From the NCBI GenBank assembly GCA_049686315.1, contig JBAVHY010000158.1:2469-66468 (forward strand): DNA of 64,000 nucleotides, in the 5' to 3' direction. Position 1 is the first letter of the stretch. Each line of letters opens with the position of its first letter. The position numbers and the translations under genes are program-made. A model generated the notes under the pieces. That model searched no databases. It worked only from the letters and a program-made list of their open reading frames with translations, and was not told the origin of the DNA. Below, one piece after another: positions 48,163 through 60,096 of the stretch. Origin of the DNA: Candidatus Acidiferrum sp. (GTDB lineage Bacteria > Acidobacteriota > Terriglobia > Acidiferrales > UBA7541).

Positions 48163-49806
48163 TTGGCGACGACTCCATGGCGACGGTTCTTTTCTGGTTT
48201 TTTGTTATTCACGCTGAACGGGGCGGCGCTGTTCGCGCAACGTGCTCAGACGGCTTCCATCTCTACCCGCATTGATGTGCAGCCCTCGCAGTTGCTGTCC
48301 ACGCCTGTTTCCGCGAACTGGCTCTCGTACAACGGTGACTACACCGGGCGACGTTACAGCACCCTGCACGAAATAAACGTTAGTAACGTCTCGCAGCTTC
48401 GCGCGCAATGGGCCTTTCATGTGTCGAATTCCAACCGCTTGGAAGTGACGCCTGTTGTGGTGGATGGAATCATGTTGCTGACTTCCGCGAACGACGCCTA
48501 CGCCCTCGATGCGCAGACGGGGCGGACGCTGTGGCACTATGCACGGCCCATCACCGAAGGTCTGATTGACGATGCCTCACAGCATCACAACCGCGGCGTC
48601 GGCATCTGGCATTCACGCATTTACATGGAAACAGACAACGCGCATCTACTCTGCCTGGATGCGAGTTCCGGCCATCTTCTGTGGGATGTCGCTTACACTG
48701 ACGGAAACCCCAACTATGGCGCAACCAGCGCACCGCTCGTGGTCAAGGATAGAGTGCTCGTGGGAACTTCCGGCGGCGACGATGGCGTGCGCGGATTTGT
48801 TGCGGCATACGACGCCGAAACCGGCAAAGAGGCGTGGCGATTCTGGACCATTCCAGCCCCAGGAGAATTCGGCTCCTCCAGTTGGCCCGGCGATAGCTGG
48901 AAACTGGGGGGCGGCACGACCTGGATGCCCGGCACCTTTGACCCTGAATTGAATATGATCTTTTGGGGCACCAGCAATCCCGCGCCTGATTTCGATGGAG
49001 GGCCGCGTCCTGGCGATGATCTTTATACGGATTGCCTGCTGGCCCTCGATGCGGACACTGGAAAGCTGCAATGGTATTTCCAATTCACACCGCATGACCT
49101 GTTCGATTACGACGCGGTTGAAACGCCCATGCTCGTTGATGCGGTTTTCAAAGGTCAGCCTAGAAAACTGGTCGTGGAAGCCAACCGAAACGGTTTTCTC
49201 TATGTGCTCGATCGCACGAACGGCAAATTTCTATCGGCAACGCGTTTTGCCGAAAAGCTAAACTGGTCTACCGGGATTGACGCCGCTGGCCGGCCCATTG
49301 GAACACAGCTTAAGCCAACGGAAACCGGTACCCGCATCTGTCCAGGCATGGTAGGAGCCACGAACTGGCACTCGCCCGCGTTTAGTCCGGAAACGTCCAT
49401 GCTTTATTTCATGGCGCTGGAGAGTTGCGACATTTATATGACCAAAGCTCAGAAATTTGTTCCTGGCCAGACTTACTACGCTACGGGAGTTCGCCGGAGC
49501 GAGAGCGACCAGAACGAGAAAATCCTCCTGGCCTACTCGATCGATGGCGATAAGCCGGCGTGGCGCTACGTTCAGTCCGGCGAGGGGCATTCCTCAGCTG
49601 GCGTCATGACCACTGCCGGGGGGCTGGTTTTCTTCGGTGACGACGCACGATCGTTCGAAGCCGTTGACGCGGCGACTGGAAAACCGCTATGGCATTTCAA
49701 TACCGGGCAGAACATCAGCGCCTCGCCCATGACATACGCGGTCAACTCAAAACAGTATGTGGCCATTGCCGCCGGTAGCGACGTTTTCACGTTCACTTTG
49801 CCATAA
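48163..49806 (+). CDS. PQQ-dependent dehydrogenase, methanol/ethanol family (soluble, exported)
   Basis: TTG start in frame, with a signal peptide. The family N-terminus is present (WLSYNGDYTGRRYSTLHEINVSNVSQLRAQWAF), as are propeller repeats and the active-site region FTPHDLFDYDAVETP. There is no C-terminal cytochrome domain. Confidence 0.9.
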   Translation: MATTPWRRFFSGFLLFTLNGAALFAQRAQTASISTRIDVQPSQLLSTPVSANWLSYNGDYTGRRYSTLHEINVSNVSQLRAQWAFHVSNSNRLEVTPVVVDGIMLLTSANDAYALDAQTGRTLWHYARPITEGLIDDASQHHNRGVGIWHSRIYMETDNAHLLCLDASSGHLLWDVAYTDGNPNYGATSAPLVVKDRVLVGTSGGDDGVRGFVAAYDAETGKEAWRFWTIPAPGEFGSSSWPGDSWKLGGGTTWMPGTFDPELNMIFWGTSNPAPDFDGGPRPGDDLYTDCLLALDADTGKLQWYFQFTPHDLFDYDAVETPMLVDAVFKGQPRKLVVEANRNGFLYVLDRTNGKFLSATRFAEKLNWSTGIDAAGRPIGTQLKPTETGTRICPGMVGATNWHSPAFSPETSMLYFMALESCDIYMTKAQKFVPGQTYYATGVRRSESDQNEKILLAYSIDGDKPAWRYVQSGEGHSSAGVMTTAGGLVFFGDDARSFEAVDAATGKPLWHFNTGQNISASPMTYAVNSKQYVAIAAGSDVFTFTLP

Positions 49807-49927: not shown

Positions 49928-52900
49928 ATGCTAAATCGCTCCTGGCATGTAATCTCGGCCATTTCAATCGTTTTAATACTACTTGGTAACGCCACAGTAA
50001 TTCGCGCCGATGTTACTGGCTCGATACAGGGTGTGGTGCGCGATCCTTCTCAGGGCGCCATCACGGGCGCGCAGATCACGATTACGAATGCACAAACGAA
50101 TCTCACTTATGAAACGAAGACCGGCGCGGATGGCTCCTATCACGTCCTGGCGCTTCCCGCGGGCGTGTACAAGCTTACCGTGACCGCGCCCGGATTCCGC
50201 ACATTCGTCGAAAGTGACGTCGAAGTGAAAGTGAACGACCAGCTTCACATTGACGTCACTCTGAACGTCGGCTCCGCGACACAGGAAGTCATCAATGTTC
50301 AAGCGAATGCCGTGCAAGTGCAGACGGAAAGCACGCAACTTGGCGACGTGATCGACTCCAAGAAAATGCTCGCCCTGCCACTGAATGGGCGGAGCTATAT
50401 CGACCTTCTGGGCTTGCAGGCGGGCGTCGCGCCCTCGTCGGCCGGAACAATCGAAGGCGGCGGGACTGCCGGGCTCGGGACTCGGCCGGTCTCTGGAATT
50501 TTGAGCGCGGGCAACATCTCCGTGAATGGCCAGCGCGAAACGGCGAACGCCTTCCTGGTGAATGGCGGAGACGTGAGCGAGGGGCGTAACCTCGGCGCCG
50601 GTTTGGTCCCCAACTTAGACTCGGTGGAGGAATTTCGCCTCATCACCAATAGCTTTGATGCGGAGTATGGGAAATTCAGCGGTGCGGTGATGAACGCGAT
50701 CACCAAATCCGGCACCAACTCGTTTCATGGCGACGTCTTCGAATTTCTTCGTAATGACAAGCTCGATGCCAAGAATTACTTCGCCCCTTCCAAGTCCGAA
50801 TTGCGCCGCAATCAATTTGGCTACACCTTGGGCGGCCCCATCTGGAAAGATCATCTGTTCTTTTTCTCGGACTACCAGGGCACCCGCCAGGTGCAGGGCG
50901 CCGAAACGGGGTTGGTTACTGTGCCAACCACTGACCAGCGCAACGGTAACTTTGATCCGTCGACAGTGACGGGGACAATCGACGGGCCGTACTGGGCCCA
51001 AGTGCTCTCGCAGCGCTTGGGCTACACCGTAGCGCAAGGTGAGCCGTACAGCTTTCCTGCGGTCACAGATGCGCAGGGCAACGTCACCAGCCCAGCCTGC
51101 AGCTCGACGGCGCTGTGCGTGTTTCCCGTTGACCCGGTCTCGGGTCTAGCTATGATTCCCCAGTCGGCTTGGGCGCCCCCGACTAGCCACATACTCCCGT
51201 ACATGCCCAGCCAGACTCTCGCCGGAAGTGTGAACAACTACTCCAACAACAGCCAGAAGAGCAGCGTGACCGACAACAAGTTCGGGGAGCGTGTGGATTT
51301 CAACAACCAAAAGACGGGAAACTGGTCGTGGTACTACCACTTGGACAACACGACGGTGGACAACGCCCTGGCGGGTTTCGCCACCGTGCCTGGATTCCCC
51401 ACGAACACACCTTCGCGAGCCCAAGAGTTCGTCATGAGCAACACCAAGACCTTCGGCGCCACCTCCGTAAACGAGGCGCGCATCAGCTTCTTCCGTACCG
51501 TGCTGCACAAGGACAATCCCGCGGGCAGTTTCGCCGACGTGTCCTCGCTCGGTTTTGTGACCGGTGAAAGCACCCTGGGCATTGTCCCACTGCCTGGGTA
51601 CAAGCAATATATGCCACAAGTGAGCTTGAGCCTGATTGGACTGAACATCGGCGTACCCACACTCAATACCTTCCAGCCCAACACCACGTACATGGCCAGT
51701 GACGTGTTTTCGAAGGTGGTCGGCAAACATACCTGGAAATTCGGAGGGGAATTCCGCTACCTCATGGTGAACGAAAGGAATTACGCCAGCCCCAACGGGC
51801 AATTCACATTTGATGGTTCCGTGACTGGCTCTGACATGGCCGACTTCCTCCTCGGCGCAACCTGCAACTCTTGTGGTGGTGCTTACGTCCAGGCCGCCAA
51901 ACAGGTGCTGGATTCCCGAACCCGTTATGGCGGGGCCTTCGTTCAGGACTCTTGGAAAGTGAAATCCAACCTCACCCTCAATCTCGGCCTCCGCTGGGAA
52001 GTCAGCATGCCTTGGTACGACTGGCAAGGAAAAATCCAGACCTTCGTTCCCGGGCAACAGTCCACTGTGTTCCCACTCGCTCCCGGGGGGTTAGTGTTCC
52101 CCGGCGACCCTGGCATTCCCAAAACGCTGGCGCCGACGCGCTATAACAACTTCGGCCCACGACTCGGTTTGGCGTATTCGCCAGGGTTTTCGGACGGCGT
52201 GTTGGGCAAAATCTTTGGCGGCCCGGGCAAATCAAGCATTCGGGCATCCTACGGTCTGTATTACACCTCGGTCGAAGACCTGAATCTATTTTACGAGGTG
52301 GCGGATGCGCCTTTCGGCCTATATTGGCAATCTCCGACGTCGGTACTGTTTGACCAACCTTTCCTGATTCGACAGAGTGGGCAATCGCTGGGACAACGTT
52401 TTCCTTACACCTTGCCGATTCCAGGTGCCGCGTCCAACAAGACACTGGACTTCTCGGTATTCGAGCCCATCAACTATTTTCCGGGCTACTACGTTCACAA
52501 CAGGCTGCCTTACGCGGAGCACTTCAATCTCTCGATCCAACGCGAACTCACCAAATCAACCGTGCTCACCTTGGCTTACGTCGGTACCGAGGGGCACCAC
52601 CTCATCACCCAGCAGGAATCCAACCCAGGCGACCCAACTCTGTGCCAACAACTCACTGCCCAGGGGGCCATGGACACGACCGCAGGCGCGGCTGGCTGCG
52701 GATTTGGCGCCGAGAACGACGTTTTCCAGCTTCCGAGCGGCAACTTCGTGTACAGCACCAGGGACAAACTTCTAAATCCAAACTACTGCCCGAATTCGGC
52801 TCTCCAGGTGTGTTTTGGCTATGGCAACACGTACACATTCACGAGCGCCAATTCCATCTACAACGCTGGGCAAATCACCGTCGAACGCAAGGCCAACGAC

Positions 52901-53641
52901 GTCACCTTCCTGGCTGCCTACACTTTTGCCAGGGCCTTGGACGATTCCTCCGGGTTCGGTGACTTGGTGAACTTCGTAAATCCTAAAATCAGCCGTGGCT
53001 TGTCCTCCGCGGACGTCACTCACAATTTTGTGGCCAGTTACATTTGGGCCGTGCCCTTCGACCGCCTCTTTGGGAACGCCCCGAAGCGTTTGACCCAGGG
53101 TTGGCAGATTCAGGGAATCACCCGCTTCTCGACCGGTTTTCCGATACAGTTGAACCAAGCCAACGGTGACCTAGCTCTGTGGGGTAGCTCGTCCACGGAT
53201 ATGCCGAATCGGGTTGGTCCATTGCAGATCCTGAATCCGCGCAAATCGAATCCGAATTGCCCAACCAGCGACGGCACCGGATGCTACTTTATCCCGCCTC
53301 CACTAAATCTTGCCACACCACAATTCCCAGGGGACGTGACAGCGGCAGCCTGCTTGCCGAGTGTGGGTGCATTCGCGCAGAATTGCATTCCAGGAACATT
53401 CGGGACTGCCAACCGCCGCTTCTTCCATGGCCCCGGTTTCAACAACACCGATTTCGGCATATCCAAACGAACGGTCATCAAGGAGAATCTCGCGTTCGAT
53501 TTGCGTTTGGAATTTTTCAACATCTTCAACCATACGCAATTTACAAATCCTTCCGGAGACATCACCAACTCGAGCTTCGGAATCGTTACCAACGCGCGCG
53601 ATCCGCGGATTGGGCAGGTCAGCGCGAAGTTCTACTGGTAA
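49928..53641 (+). CDS. TonB-dependent receptor-like outer membrane protein with an N-terminal CarboxypepD_reg domain (paralog of 40958-44401)
   Basis: Signal peptide, then GSIQGVVRD...YHVLALPAGVYKLTVTAPGFR. The plug-like block (LNGRSYIDLL...NISVNGQRETANAFLVNGGDV) and the FEFLRNDKLDA block are shared with the paralog. It ends ...VSAKFYW. Confidence 0.85.
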   Translation: MLNRSWHVISAISIVLILLGNATVIRADVTGSIQGVVRDPSQGAITGAQITITNAQTNLTYETKTGADGSYHVLALPAGVYKLTVTAPGFRTFVESDVEVKVNDQLHIDVTLNVGSATQEVINVQANAVQVQTESTQLGDVIDSKKMLALPLNGRSYIDLLGLQAGVAPSSAGTIEGGGTAGLGTRPVSGILSAGNISVNGQRETANAFLVNGGDVSEGRNLGAGLVPNLDSVEEFRLITNSFDAEYGKFSGAVMNAITKSGTNSFHGDVFEFLRNDKLDAKNYFAPSKSELRRNQFGYTLGGPIWKDHLFFFSDYQGTRQVQGAETGLVTVPTTDQRNGNFDPSTVTGTIDGPYWAQVLSQRLGYTVAQGEPYSFPAVTDAQGNVTSPACSSTALCVFPVDPVSGLAMIPQSAWAPPTSHILPYMPSQTLAGSVNNYSNNSQKSSVTDNKFGERVDFNNQKTGNWSWYYHLDNTTVDNALAGFATVPGFPTNTPSRAQEFVMSNTKTFGATSVNEARISFFRTVLHKDNPAGSFADVSSLGFVTGESTLGIVPLPGYKQYMPQVSLSLIGLNIGVPTLNTFQPNTTYMASDVFSKVVGKHTWKFGGEFRYLMVNERNYASPNGQFTFDGSVTGSDMADFLLGATCNSCGGAYVQAAKQVLDSRTRYGGAFVQDSWKVKSNLTLNLGLRWEVSMPWYDWQGKIQTFVPGQQSTVFPLAPGGLVFPGDPGIPKTLAPTRYNNFGPRLGLAYSPGFSDGVLGKIFGGPGKSSIRASYGLYYTSVEDLNLFYEVADAPFGLYWQSPTSVLFDQPFLIRQSGQSLGQRFPYTLPIPGAASNKTLDFSVFEPINYFPGYYVHNRLPYAEHFNLSIQRELTKSTVLTLAYVGTEGHHLITQQESNPGDPTLCQQLTAQGAMDTTAGAAGCGFGAENDVFQLPSGNFVYSTRDKLLNPNYCPNSALQVCFGYGNTYTFTSANSIYNAGQITVERKANDVTFLAAYTFARALDDSSGFGDLVNFVNPKISRGLSSADVTHNFVASYIWAVPFDRLFGNAPKRLTQGWQIQGITRFSTGFPIQLNQANGDLALWGSSSTDMPNRVGPLQILNPRKSNPNCPTSDGTGCYFIPPPLNLATPQFPGDVTAAACLPSVGAFAQNCIPGTFGTANRRFFHGPGFNNTDFGISKRTVIKENLAFDLRLEFFNIFNHTQFTNPSGDITNSSFGIVTNARDPRIGQVSAKFYW

Positions 53642-53772
53642 TCCGGCAAACCAGGCGAGACCCAACGCAATCCGTACTTCCCTTCTCGCCTGGGTTCGGC
53701 ACGCATGTTAGGCTGTCTCCGATGAAATGCCGCGGGAACGATTCGTTCAGTCACCTTGGTAGGTTCTTGCGA

Positions 53773-55389
53773 ATGTCTGTCGTGGTTCTCAGCCTTAGCT
53801 ATGCAGGACCGGCGCTCGCTCAGACGGCTCAAGTGTACCGTGAAAAGGCCAATGCACTGGTCCGCTCCAAGTCATGGGAGGAGGCCATCTCCAACTATCG
53901 CAAAGCTCTGGAACTCGATCCTAAGGACGCAGAAACGCATTACGATCTTGCGCTGGCCTTGAAATACAACGGTGAAACAAAACAAGCCGTCGAGGAGTTT
54001 GAGTCCGCCATCCGGCTGAAGCCCGGCTGGGGTGAGGCCCACTACGGCTTGGGCGCAGCTCTATATGACCTTCATGATCAGGCCGGCGCGCTGAAGGAAC
54101 TGCGCAAGGCGGTAGCGGGCGAGTCCTCCAACGCCGCCGCGCATCGGTTCCTCGCGCATATTTATTCGGAACAAAATGATTTTTCCGCTGCCGAACGCGA
54201 GCTCAGCCGCGCCGCGGCGCTGAAGCCTTCTGCGGAAGTTCATTTCGAACTGGGGGAAGTGGAAGGCCAGCTGGGAAAACTGGATGCCGCCTCAACTCAG
54301 TTTCGCACCGCCCTTCGCCTCGATCCGGAGCTGGCGAGAGCGTACGTCATGCTGGGCATAACGCTGCGACGTCAGGGCGATCACAAGGGAGCGCTCGCGA
54401 ATTTCAGGAAGGCCGTCGAGATCGATGCCACGGACCCCAATGCCCAATACAATCTGGGCATGGAATTAAAAGCCGAAGCCGACATTCCGGGCGCGATCGC
54501 CGCATTCCGGAGCGCGATTAAACTGAAACCTGATTTCGAGAAGGCTCACTATAGTTTGGGAATCGCTCTCCGCTCCCAAGGAGACACCGCTGCAGCGCAC
54601 AAGGAACTGGATGAATTGAACCAGCTGCATCAGTTTCGCACCCGCCTGGCGCAAGCAAAACTGCTTATCCTGCAAGGTGTGGACGCGCTTAAGAGGCAAC
54701 AACTCGACGAGGCTCTGAATTTCTTCCAGAAGGCAGTCGAGGAAAGCCCCGAGCTACCCACCGGCTACTACTATCTTGGCGTGACGTGGGACCGCAAACA
54801 GGACGACGCACACGCCAAGGAAGCCTACAACAAGGCGCTACAATTGAAACCCGACTATGCGCAGGTCCACTCCAGCCTGGGCCTTCTTTACTGGCGCGAA
54901 AATGACCGTGAGCGCGCGCTTCAGGAGTTTCATCAGGCGGTCATGTCGGATGGCGATCTTCCGGAGGCGCACTACAATTACGGTCTTGCCCTGGCGCAAT
55001 CGGGACAGCTTGACGAAGCGGTTCGGGAGTTGAACGAAGCCCTGAGCCTTGATCCCAAGTACACGGACGCGCGTATCCAATTAGGGTTGGTTCTGAGTCA
55101 GAAAAATGACACGCAAGGCGCGATCAGCGTCTTCCGGGAGCTTGTGCATCGCGATCCACGTTTCGCGGAGGCTCATAACAATCTCGGATTGGCGCTGTTG
55201 CAAGCAGGAGAAAATGGCGCTGCAAAATCTGAGTTTCTGGAGGCTGTTCGCCTCAAGCCTTCTTACGCAGAGGCGCACTACAACCTTGGATTGGCATTGC
55301 AGAAACAGGGAAAGGAGGCGGAGTCGCGCGCGGAGTTCGAGAAAGCCTTCGAAATTGCGCCCGAATTAAGGAACGCGGCTCGCCCTTAA
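53773..55389 (+). CDS. exported TPR repeat protein (more than 10 TPR units)
   Basis: The start gives MSVVVLSLSYAGPALAQ (alternative ATG at 53722). There are repeated A..Y..AL.L.P....A.YNLG TPR units throughout. The longer ORF from 53257 overlaps the receptor gene. Confidence 0.8.
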   Translation: MSVVVLSLSYAGPALAQTAQVYREKANALVRSKSWEEAISNYRKALELDPKDAETHYDLALALKYNGETKQAVEEFESAIRLKPGWGEAHYGLGAALYDLHDQAGALKELRKAVAGESSNAAAHRFLAHIYSEQNDFSAAERELSRAAALKPSAEVHFELGEVEGQLGKLDAASTQFRTALRLDPELARAYVMLGITLRRQGDHKGALANFRKAVEIDATDPNAQYNLGMELKAEADIPGAIAAFRSAIKLKPDFEKAHYSLGIALRSQGDTAAAHKELDELNQLHQFRTRLAQAKLLILQGVDALKRQQLDEALNFFQKAVEESPELPTGYYYLGVTWDRKQDDAHAKEAYNKALQLKPDYAQVHSSLGLLYWRENDRERALQEFHQAVMSDGDLPEAHYNYGLALAQSGQLDEAVRELNEALSLDPKYTDARIQLGLVLSQKNDTQGAISVFRELVHRDPRFAEAHNNLGLALLQAGENGAAKSEFLEAVRLKPSYAEAHYNLGLALQKQGKEAESRAEFEKAFEIAPELRNAARP

Positions 55390-55392
55390 TCA

Positions 55393-56187
55393 ATGACCTC
55401 ACGGCGAAAGTTTGCATTCGAGATTGTAATCGTGGCAGTTGCGATTTTTTATGGCTTGCCGGCAATCGAGCCCGGGGCGGCCGGAGGTGGTTCGTCGCAA
55501 TCGAATCCTTCCGCAAAGGTCTGCGAGTTCTCACCGCCCGGTGCCGCCTTTTCCATTCCCTATGTTTCGCATGCTCCGGAGCTGAACACCGATCCCAATT
55601 CCGTCACCTGGACAACGGCGGCTTCCACGTGGATTCAGAAAGATTGTAGCCACGAAACTGACTATGCCAGGCTCAAGACGGAGGTGCGCGGCTTTTGGAC
55701 TGATTCCGATTTGTATCTCCTGTTCATCTCGCCCTACATCGAACTCAATCTCTGGTTGCCTGCGGACAATAGCAAGGACCGGTTGAAACTTTGGGACCGC
55801 GATGTAGTTGAGTTTTTTCTGGGGGACGACTGGAGGGACATCAAACGCTATCGGGAATTTGAAATCGCTCCCACGGGAGATTGGGTGGATTTGGCTATCG
55901 ACCTGAACCATGACAGCTATGATGCCAAGTGGGATTCCGGATGGCAGCGGCAGGGACGAATCGATGAAAAAACCCACATATGGTATGCCGCCGCCCGCGT
56001 GCCGCTGCGTTCGGTGAGCGAAAAGCCAATCGCGGCCGGCACCCGGTGGAGAGTCAACCTGTATCGAATCGACGGGCTGGGCGAGGACCCGGTGCGCCGC
56101 TTTATGTGCTGGCAGCCTACTTGCGTGGTCAACCAGGATCCCAATCACGTGCCTGAACATTTTGGAACTTTAGTGTTCGCTAAATAA
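55393..56187 (+). CDS. CBM9-like / DOMON-like carbohydrate-binding-family protein with an N-terminal anchor
   Basis: An N-terminal helix is followed by YREFEIAPTGDWVDLAIDLN and WRVNLYRIDG blocks typical of CBM9_2-type domains. It starts 3 nt after the TPR gene stop, and its own stop overlaps the next ATG (TAATG). Confidence 0.55.
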   Translation: MTSRRKFAFEIVIVAVAIFYGLPAIEPGAAGGGSSQSNPSAKVCEFSPPGAAFSIPYVSHAPELNTDPNSVTWTTAASTWIQKDCSHETDYARLKTEVRGFWTDSDLYLLFISPYIELNLWLPADNSKDRLKLWDRDVVEFFLGDDWRDIKRYREFEIAPTGDWVDLAIDLNHDSYDAKWDSGWQRQGRIDEKTHIWYAAARVPLRSVSEKPIAAGTRWRVNLYRIDGLGEDPVRRFMCWQPTCVVNQDPNHVPEHFGTLVFAK

Positions 56188-57509
56188 TGAATTTCTCCGA
56201 GGATAAACAAATGCCACTTGCAAAAGAACCGAGCCGCCGCGGATTCATGAAAATGCTGGCGGCCTCGCCATTGTTAGCTCAGATTGCCGCTCAAGGGCTT
56301 TATGTAAAGTCCGCTGCGGCGATCGGTCTAAACCCGAATAGCAATGTTTATAGCCGGCTCGGGGTCAAGACCGTGATCAATTGCCGCGGAACTTGGACGT
56401 ACCTCAGCGGCTCCCTGCAATTTCCAGAGGCCCGCGAGGCTCAAGCTGAAGCCGGGCGTTATTTTGTGAACATGGTCGAGCTACACCGCGCTGTCGGGCG
56501 TCGATTAGCCGAACTGACGGGAGCGGAATCCGGAATCATCACTTCCGGCGCCGCGGGAGCGATGGCCGCTGCAACGGCAGCTTGCATCGCTGGAAGCGAT
56601 CCGCAGAAAATTTGGCAACTGCCTGATACCACCGGGCTGAAACACGAAGTGATTATGGTTGGCGGCCGTAGCGCTTTCGACAGTGCCATCCGCCTGACCG
56701 GCGCAAAGCTGGTTCTCGTCGATAAACCAGACGATATTGCCAATGCGATTACCGCGAACACCGCCATGATTTACACCACGGATCTAAAAGAAAAGCTCGA
56801 ACGCGAAGCCGCTCTTGCAAAGCAGTTCAACGTGCCGCTGTTACTGGACGACGCCGCCGGTATTCCGCCGATCGACAACATCAAGTTATACGCAAAGATG
56901 AAGCTCGACTTATACACCTTTTCCGGCGGCAAGGGTCTGCGAGGCCCTCAATGCAGCGGTGTGCTCTTGGGCCGAAAGGATCTGATCGAAGCCGCCCTGC
57001 GAAATTCTTGCCCTTACGAGGGCGCCGTCTGCCGGCCCATGAAGGTTGGAAAAGAAGAGGTAATTGGCTGCCTGACCGCGATCGAAACTTGGCTGAATAC
57101 GGATTCGAAGATACTCTACGACGAATGGAACGCGCGCATCGATCGGATCAAGAAACTTGTGGAGACCGTGCCGGGAGTGCAGACGGAAATCTACATCCCG
57201 GACGATGGCAATCGCTATCCCACCTTGCGCGTATCATGGGACCAGCAGGCGTGGGGCTTCGGCATCACGGATTGCGTCCAGAAACTCCGCGAAGGTGATC
57301 CCGTCATCGAAGTGCTCGGCGTGGATAATCCTAGTCTGGTGCCCGCAGTGCATGAAGGGATAGAGAAACCAAAACCAACCGCAAAGGAAATCAAGAAACA
57401 GAATCATATTGAACTGGTCTCCATGACCATTCAGCCCGGCGAAGAAGTGATTGTGGGCCAGCGGCTGCGTTCGATTCTCAGTTCAGCTCGCAAAGGCAAT
57501 GCGGGATGA
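56187..57509 (+). CDS. SelA-like (DgaE / L-seryl-tRNA selenium transferase-like) PLP-dependent enzyme, Tat-targeted
   Basis: Tat motif SRRGFMKMLAASPLLAQ. The fold-type-I PLP body carries the SelA-family lysine block YTFSGGKGLRGPQCSGVLLG (K249). Confidence 0.8.
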   Translation: MNFSEDKQMPLAKEPSRRGFMKMLAASPLLAQIAAQGLYVKSAAAIGLNPNSNVYSRLGVKTVINCRGTWTYLSGSLQFPEAREAQAEAGRYFVNMVELHRAVGRRLAELTGAESGIITSGAAGAMAAATAACIAGSDPQKIWQLPDTTGLKHEVIMVGGRSAFDSAIRLTGAKLVLVDKPDDIANAITANTAMIYTTDLKEKLEREAALAKQFNVPLLLDDAAGIPPIDNIKLYAKMKLDLYTFSGGKGLRGPQCSGVLLGRKDLIEAALRNSCPYEGAVCRPMKVGKEEVIGCLTAIETWLNTDSKILYDEWNARIDRIKKLVETVPGVQTEIYIPDDGNRYPTLRVSWDQQAWGFGITDCVQKLREGDPVIEVLGVDNPSLVPAVHEGIEKPKPTAKEIKKQNHIELVSMTIQPGEEVIVGQRLRSILSSARKGNAG

Positions 57510-58750
57510 ACCGACTTCTCTGTTCAGTTGTCTGCATCCTATGCGCGGCGTCCTCTTCACTTGCCCAGCAGCGTCCGGCGATAAGTCCCTCGCCTGACGC
57601 CCTCGGAGCAAACGGCATCGACGCCGGCGACTACGTTTATATTTCCGCTCAAGGCCCGCGCCGCCCGGATGGCACCACCCCAACGGACTTCCCCGATCAG
57701 GTCCGCCAGTCTCTCGATAACGTAAAGAGGGCGGTTGAATCTGCCGGCCTCTCCATGGATCACCTAGTCTACGTCCAAGTCTACCTCGAGAACACAAATC
57801 ATTACCGCGAACTCAACGATGTCTTCGGTAATTACTTTCCCAAGGATCCACCCGCTCGCGGCGTTTTGGGCGTAGCTCGGCTCCCAGAATCCTCGCTGCA
57901 AATTACCGCCGTCGCTCTCCGCGATCTTCACGGCAAGCAAGCCGTCCTCTTGCCCAATCTTCCGCCAAACACGGCCTACTCGCCGGCCATGCTCACTCAC
58001 GACCGCCTTTTTGTTTCCACCATGCCAGGCAGCGAGCCAGCAACCGGAACCGTGCCGCAAGACCCCGCGGCACAAGTCAATCTTGCCCTGGACCGCTTGA
58101 AGTCCGTGCTACAGGCGGCGGGGCTCACATTGGCCAACATGGTTTTCGTGAATCCCTATCTCGACTCGGAAGTCCCCACGCGCATCATGAATGAGCAATA
58201 TGCGCGGCGCTTCGAATTTGGAAACACTCCCGCGCGGGCCACCATCGAAGTATCCAGTCTGCCCGAAGGTGCGCACATTGCCTTTACTGGGGTGGCCGTC
58301 CGCGATCTCACCAAACGGAAAGCCGTTCGCCCGAAAAATATGCCGCCAAGCCCCACGGCTAGCCCCTGCGTTTTTGCGGGAGACACTTTGTATTGTTCCG
58401 CGAAAAGCGGATTCATTCCTGGGCCTAACGGAGGCATTTACACCGCTTCAGTGGCGGACCAAACCCGGCAGACGATGCGGAACCTTCTCGATAACCTAGA
58501 AGAAGCGGACATGAACTTCGATCAGGTGGTTTCGACCACGATTTACATGGACGATCTAAAGGATGTTGACGTGTTTCGCAATGTCTACAAAAGATATTTC
58601 AGAGCAACGCTGCCTGCACAAACCGCGGTTCAGCAGCTCCTGCCCGCTGAACGAAAGCCCGACGACGAAGAGCACTACCCCACTTTGGAGCAAGTGTCAC
58701 TCATAGCCGTGCGTGGACGAGACAAGTCAACACTGCGTCCTTTGCCGTAA
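57506..58750 (+). CDS. secreted protein made of three tandem RidA/YjgF/TdcF-like domains
   Basis: Signal peptide (SVVCILCAASSSLAQ). The three repeats of about 115 aa each carry the D..V...VY/IY and P(A)R...V..LP-type blocks: PPARGVLGVARLP, TPARATIEVSSLP and LPAQTAVQQLLP. ATGA overlap with the upstream gene. Confidence 0.85.
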   Translation: MNRLLCSVVCILCAASSSLAQQRPAISPSPDALGANGIDAGDYVYISAQGPRRPDGTTPTDFPDQVRQSLDNVKRAVESAGLSMDHLVYVQVYLENTNHYRELNDVFGNYFPKDPPARGVLGVARLPESSLQITAVALRDLHGKQAVLLPNLPPNTAYSPAMLTHDRLFVSTMPGSEPATGTVPQDPAAQVNLALDRLKSVLQAAGLTLANMVFVNPYLDSEVPTRIMNEQYARRFEFGNTPARATIEVSSLPEGAHIAFTGVAVRDLTKRKAVRPKNMPPSPTASPCVFAGDTLYCSAKSGFIPGPNGGIYTASVADQTRQTMRNLLDNLEEADMNFDQVVSTTIYMDDLKDVDVFRNVYKRYFRATLPAQTAVQQLLPAERKPDDEEHYPTLEQVSLIAVRGRDKSTLRPLP

Positions 58751-59013: not shown

Positions 59014-60096
59014 TCAATACCGTTTGATAATAAAAACTGTCTTATCGTCAATACGATCTTGCTCACCAATCTGTCGCAGGCCGCCGTCTCGTTTGAGAGC
59101 GTATTCGAGCAATGCATTGCACATTTCTTTTGCCGGCTGCAGGTAGTGCTCGCGCATGACGCTTTCAAGTTGCCGCCGTTCTTCCTTGTCGTTACCGTCA
59201 TAAACCCCGTCGGTATAAAGGAAGAGGATGTCCCCCGGACTCATCAGCGTTAGCTCTGCCACGTTCGAGGAGTTTGCTTTCCTCTGCCTGAATTCCAAGG
59301 ACAGGTACCTGTTACGATCCGGATGATCTTCGGCGAGCTGGAGGCCGAGCGGTAGAAATTGCACCATTCGGCTTTTATCAATCTCCATGAACCTGCGGTA
59401 TTCAGCGGAGAAGACCAGCGGGGGTGGATGTCCAAAATTCACGAATCGAAAATAGCCATAAGGATGTACTTCAGCGTAAAGCATGGTTGCAATCTCCTGG
59501 TCGCTCTCGTTCCCGCTCCTGCCGAGGGCATTGCGAGCGGTGACCGACTGTGCCAATCGCAAGTTGATCCTATCGAACAAATCCGGAGTCGTTTTCCCGC
59601 GGTGATCGAGTTCGGAAAGCATCAGGGCATGAAACGTGTCGTGAACCGTGGATGCGATTTTCGCTGAAATGATTCCGTGCCCTTCAGCGTCCACCACCAG
59701 GACACCCGCTGTGCTATAAAGCTCATGCAGATCTTCGGCCACCCGCACCTGCTCCGAACTTCGCGCCCGTCTATATTCGCCTTCCATTTCAGGTTTATAG
59801 CCTGGTCTGGATTTCAGCCATTCCACATGGTCGTCCACCGAATTGCGTGGCGGCGCACCTGCCGGAAGCGGCTCGAGGTACTCCTTCGATCGCTTCAAAG
59901 CCCGCTGAATGCGTGCATCGATGTCGTAACGTTGCTGAAAGTTTATGTATTCAAAGAGGTCGCCGCCGACCGTTCCGGCGGGAATGGAATTGCCATACAT
60001 CTCGATTCCCTGCACATGAGGAATCGCCCCTTCCACGGGCATCAGCCGCTTACGCAGATACTCATCGATACTTGGAGGGTTGTAAGTTCCTGCCAT
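59014..60096 (-). CDS. PP2C-family (SpoIIE/RsbU-like) serine phosphatase
   Basis: Family motifs GGDLFEY, VLVVDAEGHGIISA and GDILFLYTDGVYD, with a terminal DDKTVFIIKR. Confidence 0.85.
   Translation of the reverse strand: MAGTYNPPSIDEYLRKRLMPVEGAIPHVQGIEMYGNSIPAGTVGGDLFEYINFQQRYDIDARIQRALKRSKEYLEPLPAGAPPRNSVDDHVEWLKSRPGYKPEMEGEYRRARSSEQVRVAEDLHELYSTAGVLVVDAEGHGIISAKIASTVHDTFHALMLSELDHRGKTTPDLFDRINLRLAQSVTARNALGRSGNESDQEIATMLYAEVHPYGYFRFVNFGHPPPLVFSAEYRRFMEIDKSRMVQFLPLGLQLAEDHPDRNRYLSLEFRQRKANSSNVAELTLMSPGDILFLYTDGVYDGNDKEERRQLESVMREHYLQPAKEMCNALLEYALKRDGGLRQIGEQDRIDDKTVFIIKRY

What the first reader, a model, noticed from the sequence alone, without database searches (positions are those of the whole stretch)
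55393..58750. Exported PLP ammonia-lyase-like enzyme coupled to an exported RidA module: a periplasmic deamination and imine-quenching pair
Three translationally linked genes (TAATG and ATGA junctions) encode an anchored CBM9-like protein, a Tat-signal SelA/DgaE-like PLP enzyme (SRRGFMKML; Lys block FSGGKGLRGPQ) and a Sec-signal triple-RidA protein. SelA-like DgaE is a sugar-acid-phosphate ammonia-lyase. RidA proteins hydrolyse the reactive enamine/imine products of such PLP enzymes. Both activities are normally cytoplasmic. Here both carry export signals, and Tat export fits transport of a folded, PLP-loaded enzyme. They sit downstream of a TonB-dependent-like receptor and a TPR protein on the same strand. 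This suggests an extracytoplasmic pathway that deaminates an imported amino sugar or amino acid derivative. I am not aware of such a pathway having been characterised.
Basis: partly seen in the sequence, partly recalled or inferred. Interest (0 to 1): 0.6.

Follow-up and report, generated by a model that had tools for sequence, protein, structure and literature searches.

The report
Exported PLP lyase with triple RidA
A soil acidobacterium appears to export a vitamin-B6 ammonia-lyase-like enzyme and a three-in-one RidA imine hydrolase, encoded next to a periplasmic PQQ dehydrogenase, so it probably strips ammonia from oxidised amino sugars outside the cytoplasm, a step so far shown only inside cells.

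Summary
Three tightly linked genes encode a CBM9-fold exported protein, a DgaE-family PLP enzyme with a canonical twin-arginine leader, and a Sec-signal 3x-RidA.

Two details need correcting. The PLP gene most likely starts at ATG 56211, which has its own GAGGA, not at the TAATG overlap. The CBM9-like protein is exported rather than clearly anchored.

- **Export:** the RR motif is present in 78 of 78 complete orthologues.
- **Pairing:** 3x-RidA lies directly downstream in 45 of 48 orthologues at 70% identity or more.
- **Wider context:** a PQQ alcohol/sugar-type dehydrogenase is nearby in 40 of 80 loci, in at least five gene orders. It often comes with cytochrome c, a gluconolactonase, a mutarotase-fold protein and a bicupin, all exported.
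- **Divergent clade:** mixed metagenomes give exported lactonase, deacetylase, Tat-RidA, PLP enzyme and RraA-like aldolase.

Best reading: a periplasmic lyase/RidA pair deaminating a beta-hydroxy D-amino acid. The likeliest substrate is a 2-amino-2-deoxy-aldonate made by the PQQ enzyme. The enzyme is not a DgaE orthologue: it scores below cut-off and lacks the His-His loop.

I found no paper describing this. The scan has already met the same theme in at least 18 other genomes. Nothing has been tested at the bench.

The parts
48163..49806 (+). Exported PQQ-dependent dehydrogenase of the alcohol-dehydrogenase type (8-bladed propeller). Candidate first enzyme of the pathway.
   Evidence: Pfam PQQ, 306 bits. 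Nearest solved structures are quinohemoprotein and PedH/XoxF-type dehydrogenases. Hydrophobic leader with WRRFF. Homologues at mostly 60-88% identity lie within 8 kb of the PLP gene in 40 of 80 orthologous loci. The own genome holds only 4 paralogues.
49928..53641 (+). TonB-dependent-receptor-like outer-membrane barrel with an N-terminal CarboxypepD_reg domain.
   Evidence: OMP_b-brl_4, 616 bits; CarboxypepD_reg, 73 bits. Signal peptide visible. Close homologue (50% identity or more) in 15 of 80 loci.
53722..55389 (+). Exported TPR protein. Start inferred at ATG 53722; the longer TTG ORF from 53257 overlaps the receptor gene.
   Evidence: TPR families. Leader ...MSVVVLSLSYAGPALA/QT. Found in 10 of 80 loci.
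55393..56187 (+). Exported CBM9/DOMON-fold beta-sandwich protein with four invariant cysteines.
   Evidence: PF16011 16.4 bits, below the cut-off of 25. Model pLDDT 68. Foldseek top hits are CBM9 (1i82 E 1.8e-8; 4jpq; 7nwo), then the haem-b subunits EbdC and NxrC. C44, C85, C239 and C244 are invariant in 19 sequences. Orthologues carry Sec leaders. Found in 10 of 80 loci.
56211..57509 (+). Tat-signal DgaE-family fold-type-I PLP enzyme; probable beta-eliminating ammonia-lyase. An alternative upstream ATG lies at 56187.
   Evidence: SRRGFMK leader. PLP lysine K249 and Asp D221 are conserved. R263 aligns with the alpha-carboxylate Arg226 of DgaE. The DgaE His162-His163 loop is deleted.
57506..58750 (+). 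Sec-signal 3x-RidA: three Rid domains in one chain, a covalent pseudo-trimer.
   Evidence: The equivalent of catalytic Arg105 is present in domain 1 (R118) and domain 2 (R244). It is Gln (Q372) in domain 3. Across 56 sequences Arg is kept in 51, 56 and 39 respectively.

Best explanation
**What the locus is.** The three genes are the tail of a same-strand set of exported proteins: PQQ dehydrogenase, TonB-like receptor, TPR protein, CBM9-fold protein, PLP enzyme and 3x-RidA.

**Proposed mechanism**
- The PLP enzyme is folded and loaded with PLP in the cytoplasm, then exported by the Tat pathway (inferred).
- In the periplasm it binds a D-configured alpha-amino acid carrying a beta-hydroxyl. It eliminates water through the SelA/DgaE-type aminoacrylate chemistry and releases an enamine/imine (inferred from family chemistry).
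- It lacks the His-His loop with which DgaE protonates the enamine on the enzyme (shown by alignment). The product therefore probably leaves unprotonated.
- The Sec-exported 3x-RidA then hydrolyses it to a 2-oxo acid plus ammonium (inferred from the RidA family and the retained catalytic Arg).

**Likeliest substrate.** A 2-amino-2-deoxy-aldonate of the glucosaminate type. It would be made in the periplasm when the neighbouring PQQ dehydrogenase oxidises an amino sugar taken up through the receptor, giving a 2-keto-3-deoxy-aldonate.

**My odds**
- Exported lyase/RidA working pair: about 0.65.
- Substrate is an oxidised amino sugar: about 0.35.
For: **Shown here**
- DgaE-family homology over residues 52-374, with the PLP Lys, the Asp and the carboxylate Arg kept.
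- The roughly 45-residue leader is an add-on ahead of the DgaE core.
- The twin-arginine consensus is present in 78 of 78 complete orthologues.
- TatC is present in the genome.
- 3x-RidA lies directly downstream in 45 of 48 orthologues at 70% identity or more. It is next door, upstream or downstream, in 12 of 32 more distant ones.
- Nearly all of the 55 3x-RidA orthologues show Sec-type leaders by eye.
- The Arg105 equivalents are conserved.
- A PLP-RidA fusion protein, P0243, exists.
- Two paralogous loci in this genome repeat the theme. One has RraA-like, Tat-RidA, Tat-PLP and MFS genes. The other has Tat-PLP and an amidohydrolase.
- In a divergent clade from mixed metagenomes, RidA is adjacent in 34 of 80 loci, and 28 of 35 RidAs carry an RR motif. 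Exported amidohydrolase (27 loci), RraA-like aldolase (9) and lactonase (8) accompany them.
- Sugar context of the orthologues: PQQ dehydrogenase 40 of 80, mutarotase-fold DUF4380-like 41, bicupin 38, cytochrome c 30 and SMP-30 gluconolactonase 22. All of these were exported in the two loci examined (L040, L054), and the linkage survives in at least five gene orders.

**From papers**
- DgaE H163A releases the free enamine (PMC9529869).
- The Ong pathway deaminates glucosaminate to KDG with a PLP enzyme, and needs a RidA in vivo (PMC9537276).
- 3x-RidA is a recognised architecture (PMC4433059).
Against: - No activity, substrate or localisation has been measured for any member.
- No signal-peptide predictor was available. 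Leaders were judged by motif, hydrophobicity and conservation only.
- The enzyme scores far below the DgaE cut-offs, so the chemistry is extrapolated from about 30% identity.
- The PQQ enzyme is of the alcohol-dehydrogenase type, and its substrate cannot be read from sequence.
- The lactonase, mutarotase-fold protein and bicupin that make the sugar case were not found in this genome with my queries (genome 91% complete).
- No KDG kinase, aldolase or dedicated transporter is conserved next to the pair.
- RidA3 is missing beside many orthologues at 56-70% identity.
- Loci from related genomes are not independent samples.
Confidence: 0.5

Rival explanations
1. This is a periplasmic dehydratase/RidA pair for small beta-hydroxy or beta-thiol amino acids, such as D-Ser, D-Thr or Ser/Cys derivatives. 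Its role would be to scavenge ammonium from external organic nitrogen, with no mechanistic link to sugar oxidation. The PQQ dehydrogenase would then be a neighbour for another reason, for example making the amino acid from an amino alcohol.
For: - 2-Aminoacrylate and 2-aminocrotonate are the canonical RidA substrates (family knowledge; Lambrecht 2012, as cited).
- OngC also deaminates D-Ser and D-Thr (PMC9537276).
- A periplasmic deaminating enzyme with a RidA-type subunit that scavenges ammonium is known in Chlamydomonas (cited in PMC5053998).
- The PQQ enzyme is of the alcohol-dehydrogenase type.
Against: - The closest characterised relative acts on a sugar acid.
- The neighbours include a lactonase and a mutarotase-fold protein. 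In the divergent clade they include a lactonase and a deacetylase. These fit sugar lactones and N-acetyl amino-sugar acids better than free Ser or Thr.
Confidence: 0.2
2. The PLP enzyme performs other fold-type-I chemistry, such as transamination of a keto-sugar made by the PQQ enzyme, desulfuration, racemisation or retro-aldol cleavage. The Rid protein would then have a different role.
For: - The match to DgaE is only about 30% identity and sub-threshold.
- Weak hits also go to class-V aminotransferase and cysteine desulfurase models.
- The His-His loop and at least one phosphate-site Arg of DgaE are missing.
Against: - Both characterised branches of the family, SelA and DgaE, perform beta-elimination through an aminoacrylate (family knowledge).
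- Tight, conserved pairing with, and fusion to, Arg-bearing RidA domains is the signature of enamine or imine release.
- A periplasmic aminotransferase would lack an amino donor/acceptor pool.
Confidence: 0.12
3. The leaders are not functional export signals and the proteins act in the cytoplasm, or the adjacency is fortuitous.
For: No predictor or experiment was run here. Tat-like RR motifs can occur by chance in single sequences.
Against: - The RR consensus is kept in 78 of 78 orthologues spanning 56-92% identity.
- The leader is an extension ahead of the region homologous to cytoplasmic DgaE.
- Purely cytoplasmic relatives form a separate, supported clade.
- Partners carry Sec or Tat leaders.
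- The CBM9-like neighbour has four invariant Cys.
- The pairing survives several rearrangements.
Confidence: 0.03

Closest known systems
[quoted passage not shown]
   Same: - Same fold-type-I SelA-like family, alignable over about 320 residues.
- The PLP Lys, the pyridine-N Asp and the alpha-carboxylate Arg are conserved.
- Expected chemistry is beta-elimination of a D-configured 2-amino-3-hydroxy acid to a 2-keto-3-deoxy acid plus ammonia.
   Different: - Identity is about 30%, at 137-154 bits against cut-offs of 600 and 385.
- It has a 45-residue Tat leader and a different C-terminal 65 residues.
- The His162-His163 proton-donor loop is deleted.
- Arg301 of the phosphate site is Thr.
- There are no PTS or DgaF neighbours.
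- It is paired with RidA, which the dga operon (described in PMC9529869, as DgaE plus the DgaF aldolase) is not reported to include.
- A periplasmic substrate could hardly be a sugar phosphate.
Ong pathway for oxidised chitin in Pseudoalteromonas prydzensis (OngB deacetylase, OngC PLP deaminase, OngD RidA; PMC9537276)
   Same: - A PLP deaminase acts on glucosaminate to give KDG plus ammonia.
- It sits with a RidA that is essential in vivo.
- In the sister clades seen here, a deacetylase-type amidohydrolase is also present.
   Different: - OngC is fold-type III and not homologous.
- OngB, OngC and OngD are cytoplasmic.
- Here every protein carries an export signal.
- The aldonate would be made by a PQQ dehydrogenase rather than by an LPMO.
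- This locus has no deacetylase.
3x-RidA proteins (Niehaus et al. 2015, PMC4433059; e.g. EF_0115)
   Same: Three tandem RidA-subfamily domains, read as a covalent trimer, with catalytic Arg-bearing sites.
   Different: - This one carries a Sec signal peptide. That paper does not mention export (no occurrence of 'signal peptide' or 'periplasm').
- In this genome, one of the three sites has Gln in place of Arg.
Periplasmic L-amino-acid oxidase of Chlamydomonas with a RidA-type subunit; Tat-LAAO/cytochrome c/RidA cluster of Gluconacetobacter (as discussed in PMC5053998)
   Same: An extracytoplasmic deaminating enzyme teamed with a Rid protein, releasing ammonium from external amino compounds.
   Different: The deaminating enzyme there is a flavin oxidase, not a PLP lyase. 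The organisms and substrates also differ.

Membership tests
[quoted passage not shown] | Score at or above the curated cut-off (600 bits) | tested here: not met
   136.9 bits.
[quoted passage not shown] | Strictly conserved His162-His163 loop (proton donor to C3) | tested here: not met
   The four residues HHCV of 7lc0 fall in a gap of the query in the HMMER alignment. Role of the loop is taken from PMC9529869.
[quoted passage not shown] | Phosphate-binding Arg301/Arg332/Arg346 cluster | tested here: inconclusive
   Arg301 aligns with Thr346. Arg332 and Arg346 lie beyond the alignable region.
[quoted passage not shown] | PLP lysine and alpha-carboxylate Arg226 | tested here: met
   K249 is invariant, and R263 aligns with Arg226.
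DgaE family, broad (TIGR01437 selA_rel subfamily) | Score at or above the cut-off (385 bits) | tested here: not met
   154.3 bits. It is still the best-scoring model, so this is a sister clade rather than a member.
SelA (selenocysteine synthase, TIGR00474 / PF03841) | Score at or above the cut-off | tested here: not met
   TIGR00474 21.9 bits against 267.9. PF03841 22.5 bits against 22.8. A separate, weaker match to the DgaE model (46 bits, 479-aa frame) lies elsewhere in the genome; it was not examined.
Tat (twin-arginine) substrates | S/T-R-R-x-F-L-K motif, followed by a mildly hydrophobic stretch and an AxA-type site, ahead of the mature domain | tested here: met
   SRRGFMK, then MLAASPLLAQIAAQGL, then SAAA. 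Motif present in 78 of 78 complete orthologues. TatC is in the genome at 219.9 bits.
Tat (twin-arginine) substrates | Tat-dependent export shown experimentally | not testable with these tools
   No predictor or experiment was available.
RidA subfamily / 3x-RidA | Rid-family model above cut-off, and three tandem domains | tested here: met
   TIGR00004 186.7 bits against 106.25, in three stretches. PF01042 184 bits, in three stretches. Architecture as defined in PMC4433059.
RidA subfamily / 3x-RidA | Catalytic Arg (E. coli Arg105) in the PAR motif | tested here: met
   R118 and R244 are present. The third domain has Q372. Across orthologues Arg is kept in 51, 56 and 39 of 56.
CBM9 carbohydrate-binding module | Pfam CBM9_2 score above cut-off | tested here: not met
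   16.4 bits against 25.
CBM9 carbohydrate-binding module | CBM9 beta-sandwich fold | tested here: met
   Foldseek hits 1i82 (E 1.8e-8), 4jpq and 7nwo, with target TM 0.6, on a model of pLDDT 68. The haem-binding EbdC and NxrC subunits also match, at E 9e-5 to 6e-4.
CBM9 carbohydrate-binding module | Aromatic clamp that binds reducing-end sugars | not tested
   No residue-level superposition was made.
Ong-type glucosaminate pathway | Fold-type-III OngC deaminase with OngB deacetylase, in the cytoplasm | tested here: not met
   The enzyme here is fold-type I and carries export signals. There is no amidohydrolase in this locus. It works like the Ong pathway but is not a member.

The most novel reading that the evidence does not exclude
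This is a complete, non-phosphorylative amino-sugar pathway running in the periplasm of soil Acidobacteriota.

- A PQQ dehydrogenase, possibly lanthanide-dependent, oxidises an amino sugar at C1 and passes the electrons to cytochrome c.
- The lactone opens.
- A Tat-exported PLP lyase plus 3x-RidA then release ammonium and a 2-keto-3-deoxy-aldonate outside the cytoplasm.

The cell would therefore harvest both respiratory electrons and nitrogen before uptake.
Probability: 0.3. Interest if true: 0.75.

Novelty: new variant of a known kind. Interest (0 to 1): 0.6.

Why it matters
- PLP lyases and their RidA partners are textbook cytoplasmic metabolism. A conserved, multi-lineage exported version would add a compartment to amino-compound catabolism.
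- It would give a clear case of a PLP holoenzyme exported by the Tat pathway.
- It would show that reactive enamines are managed in the periplasm too.
- If the substrate is an oxidised amino sugar, it links chitin/chitosan turnover and nitrogen release in peat and forest soils to abundant, mostly uncultured Acidobacteriota.
- It would extend the recently found oxidative chitin pathway.
- The proteins are soluble and small enough for direct assay, so the idea is readily testable.

Tried and rejected
- Gene context was taken from the search for related loci and the genome search instead.
- **Alignment too diverse.** A 24-sequence alignment was too diverse for the locus search. A 9-sequence one worked.
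- **Literature searches that gave nothing useful.**
  - The first search matched unrelated words.
  - No paper mentions PDB 8T7J.
  - 'glucosaminate' plus 'PQQ' found nothing useful.
  - 'pyridoxal, twin-arginine, periplasmic, ammonia-lyase' found nothing relevant.
- **SelA membership.** Considered and rejected on scores.
- **DgaE orthology.** Rejected on score, on the missing His-His loop and on the absence of PTS/DgaF context.
- **Haem-binding DOMON-type reading for the CBM9-like protein.** Considered because EbdC and NxrC appear among the fold hits. It can be neither supported nor excluded, since the candidate ligand region is modelled at low confidence.
- **Conserved KDG genes.** I looked for a KDG kinase, aldolase or transporter beside the pair by clustering all neighbouring ORFs. 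None was found.
- **Missing neighbours in this genome.** The mutarotase-fold protein and the bicupin were not found with these queries.
- **Tree.** The Tat labels are noisy because some public gene starts are miscalled. I use it only to show that a purely cytoplasmic clade separates from the Tat-rich remainder.


Full report
**Observation**

The + strand between 48.1 and 58.8 kb carries six consecutive genes:
- a PQQ dehydrogenase (48163-49806);
- a TonB-receptor-like barrel (49928-53641);
- a TPR protein (most likely 53722-55389);
- a CBM9-like protein (55393-56187);
- a SelA/DgaE-like PLP enzyme (56187 or 56211 to 57509);
- a triple-RidA protein (57506-58750).

The next genes lie on the opposite strand: a SpoIIE-type phosphatase and an RND efflux set. 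The unit therefore ends with RidA.

The ATGA overlap between the PLP and RidA genes is real. The TAATG overlap is in the DNA too. However, all close homologues are 432 aa and begin at the second Met. That ATG, at 56211, has GAGGA 6 nt upstream. I take 56211 as the start.

**What the three proteins are**

*PLP enzyme.*
- Its best family models are TIGR01437 (DgaE family, 154 bits, cut-off 385) and NF047797 (DgaE, 137 bits, cut-off 600). SelA models score only about 22 bits.
- The nearest solved structures are 8t7j (E 1e-31) and Salmonella DgaE 7lc0 (E 1e-27). Both align from residue 52 onward. The first roughly 45 residues are thus an extension in front of the DgaE core.
- The Schiff-base Lys (K249) is invariant in a 24-sequence alignment and D221 is kept in at least 90% of it. 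The Arg matching the alpha-carboxylate Arg226 of DgaE (R263) is invariant in a 9-sequence alignment.
- The DgaE His162-His163 loop is deleted, and Arg301 of the phosphate site is Thr.
- The role of that loop comes from PMC9529869. His163 protonates the enamine on the enzyme, and the H163A mutant releases the free enamine.
- The genome has three such paralogues, none reaching the DgaE cut-off.

*RidA protein.*
- It has three Rid domains behind a Sec-type leader. This is the '3x-RidA' architecture of Niehaus et al. 2015, read there as a covalent trimer.
- The catalytic Arg of the PAR motif is present in domains 1 and 2. In domain 3 it is Gln. Across 56 sequences Arg is kept in 51, 56 and 39.

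*CBM9-like protein.*
- It is below the Pfam cut-off.
- A model (pLDDT 68) hits CBM9 structures first, then the haem-b subunits EbdC and NxrC.
- Its family has four invariant Cys, as expected outside the cytoplasm.
- Most orthologues have cleavable Sec leaders, so 'anchored' is not supported.

**Are the export signals and the pairing conserved?**

A scan of species-representative genomes, using a pattern from the catalytic-lysine region, returned 80 orthologous loci at 56-92% identity. Nearly all are Terriglobia from soil and peat.
- The twin-arginine motif is present in all 78 genes that are complete at the 5' end. It usually reads (S/D/N)RR(S/G/A)F(M/I/V/L)K.
- Nearly all of the 55 3x-RidA orthologues show a hydrophobic Sec-type leader by eye; two or three start calls look truncated.
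- TatC is encoded in this genome.
- 3x-RidA lies directly downstream in 45 of 48 loci at 70% identity or more. It is next to the PLP gene in 4 of 17 loci at 60-70% and in 8 of 15 below 60%.
- Among 50%-identity cluster representatives, about a third of the best 150 relatives carry RR leaders.
- In a quick tree, a purely cytoplasmic clade of 45 sequences (support 97) separates from the Tat-rich remainder. The Tat labels there are noisy.
- One relative is a natural PLP-RidA fusion (P0243).

In the 80 loci the pair is accompanied by:
- a PQQ dehydrogenase homologous to the window's, mostly at 60-88% identity (40 loci);
- a DUF4380-like protein (41 loci);
- a bicupin (38 loci);
- a cytochrome c (30 loci);
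- an SMP-30 gluconolactonase (22 loci);
- the receptor (15 loci), the TPR protein (10) and the CBM9-like protein (10).

In the two loci examined in detail (L040, L054), all of these carry signal peptides. The DUF4380-like protein models confidently (pLDDT 81) as a galactose-mutarotase fold.

The linkage between PQQ dehydrogenase, PLP enzyme and RidA survives in at least five different gene orders. The window genome has only four PQQ-dehydrogenase paralogues. By my estimate, chance adjacency within 8 kb would then be about 1%.

The window's arrangement (PQQ, receptor, TPR, CBM9, PLP, RidA) is one of these variants. The mutarotase-fold protein and the bicupin were not found in this genome, which is 91% complete.

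**Sister clades**

Two paralogous loci in this genome repeat the theme:
- exported RraA-like aldolase, Tat-RidA, Tat-PLP enzyme and an MFS transporter;
- Tat-PLP enzyme next to an amidohydrolase.

In other Acidobacteriota, a RidA lies within 1.5 kb of a paralogue in 13 of 29 loci. Three of these loci (L006, L021, L030) come from the unpublished genome G049, and two of them count among the 13. That figure partly rests on it.

A divergent clade was fetched from mixed soil, sediment and marine metagenomes:
- RidA is adjacent in 34 of 80 loci, and 28 of 35 RidAs carry an RR motif;
- exported PRK09237/EF_0837-type amidohydrolases occur in 27 loci;
- RraA-like aldolases occur in 9 loci, and lactonases in 8.

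The recurring set is lactonase, deacetylase-type hydrolase, RidA, PLP enzyme and aldolase, all exported.

**Mechanism**

*Shown:*
- family membership at the superfamily level;
- retention of the PLP and carboxylate-binding residues;
- loss of the on-enzyme proton donor;
- conserved leaders;
- conserved pairing and fusion with Arg-bearing Rid domains;
- a conserved sugar-oxidation neighbourhood.

*Inferred:*
- The PLP enzyme is exported folded with its cofactor.
- It performs the beta-elimination common to SelA and DgaE on a D-configured 2-amino-3-hydroxy acid.
- The released enamine/imine is hydrolysed by 3x-RidA to a 2-oxo acid plus ammonium.
- The most economical substrate is a 2-amino-2-deoxy-aldonate produced in the periplasm by the PQQ dehydrogenase, with a lactonase where present.
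- The CBM9-fold protein and the receptor would serve in substrate capture.

The cytoplasmic precedent is the Ong pathway. There glucosaminate is deaminated to KDG by a non-homologous PLP enzyme, and a RidA is essential (PMC9537276). An extracytoplasmic precedent for a Rid partner is the Chlamydomonas periplasmic amino-acid oxidase (cited in PMC5053998).

**Limits**
- Nothing has been assayed, and no signal-peptide predictor was available.
- The PQQ enzyme is of the alcohol-dehydrogenase type with unknown substrate.
- No KDG-handling gene is conserved beside the pair.
- Related loci are not independent samples.
- Small D-amino acids remain a serious alternative substrate.

**Novelty**

I found no paper describing a Tat-exported DgaE-like enzyme or an exported bacterial RidA partnered with a PLP lyase in the library searched.

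The same theme has been noted by this scan in at least 18 other genomes. One is the cupin variant of this orthologous group. I looked these notes up after forming my reading, and they agree with it.

I class the finding as a new variant of a known kind: the known kind is a PLP lyase plus RidA, and the variant is its relocation to the periplasm and its tie to PQQ-dependent oxidation.

Noticed in passing
window 48163-49806: The PQQ dehydrogenase that heads the cluster has a leader containing WRRFF. Another first-stage note flags it as carrying a lanthanide-type D-Y-D motif. Its orthologues travel with the PLP/RidA pair in half of the related loci.
   Followed up: partly
L002 (own genome, contig C141) 70-3996: A second cassette in the same genome: RraA-like aldolase with a signal peptide, a Tat-signal single-domain RidA, a Tat-signal DgaE-like enzyme, then an MFS transporter.
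   Followed up: partly
L003 (own genome, contig C370) 1492-4083: A third Tat-signal DgaE-like paralogue lies next to a PRK09237/EF_0837-type amidohydrolase. This is the same deacetylase family that recurs beside the enzyme in metagenomic loci.
   Followed up: partly
P0243 and P0193 (cluster representatives): Natural fusions exist. P0243 (620 aa) joins the PLP enzyme to a C-terminal RidA domain. P0193 (613 aa) joins an N-terminal methyltransferase to the PLP enzyme.
   Followed up: partly
P0137, P0140, P0143, P0150, P0170, P0195, P0196, P0275: A set of Tat-signal relatives of 526-567 aa carries a C-terminal extension of about 150 residues with no Pfam match.
   Followed up: no
L040 7140-7958 and orthologues: The exported bicupin that sits directly upstream of the PLP gene in 38 of 80 loci weakly resembles (S)-ureidoglycine aminohydrolase, another ammonia-releasing enzyme. 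Its role is unknown.
   Followed up: no
L006/L021/L030 (genome G049, unpublished, contig C52): Four DgaE-like copies lie within about 8 kb, together with a RidA and an amidohydrolase. This is a paralogue-rich island.
   Followed up: no
L040 1872-2657 and 8 other loci: A NagB/6-phosphogluconolactonase-family protein without a signal peptide lies next to the exported PQQ dehydrogenase in 9 of 80 loci. This hints at a cytoplasmic amino-sugar branch.
   Followed up: no
window 59014-60096 (- strand): A SpoIIE/PP2C-type phosphatase lies convergent with the end of the cluster. It is not conserved next to the pair in any of the 80 related loci.
   Followed up: partly
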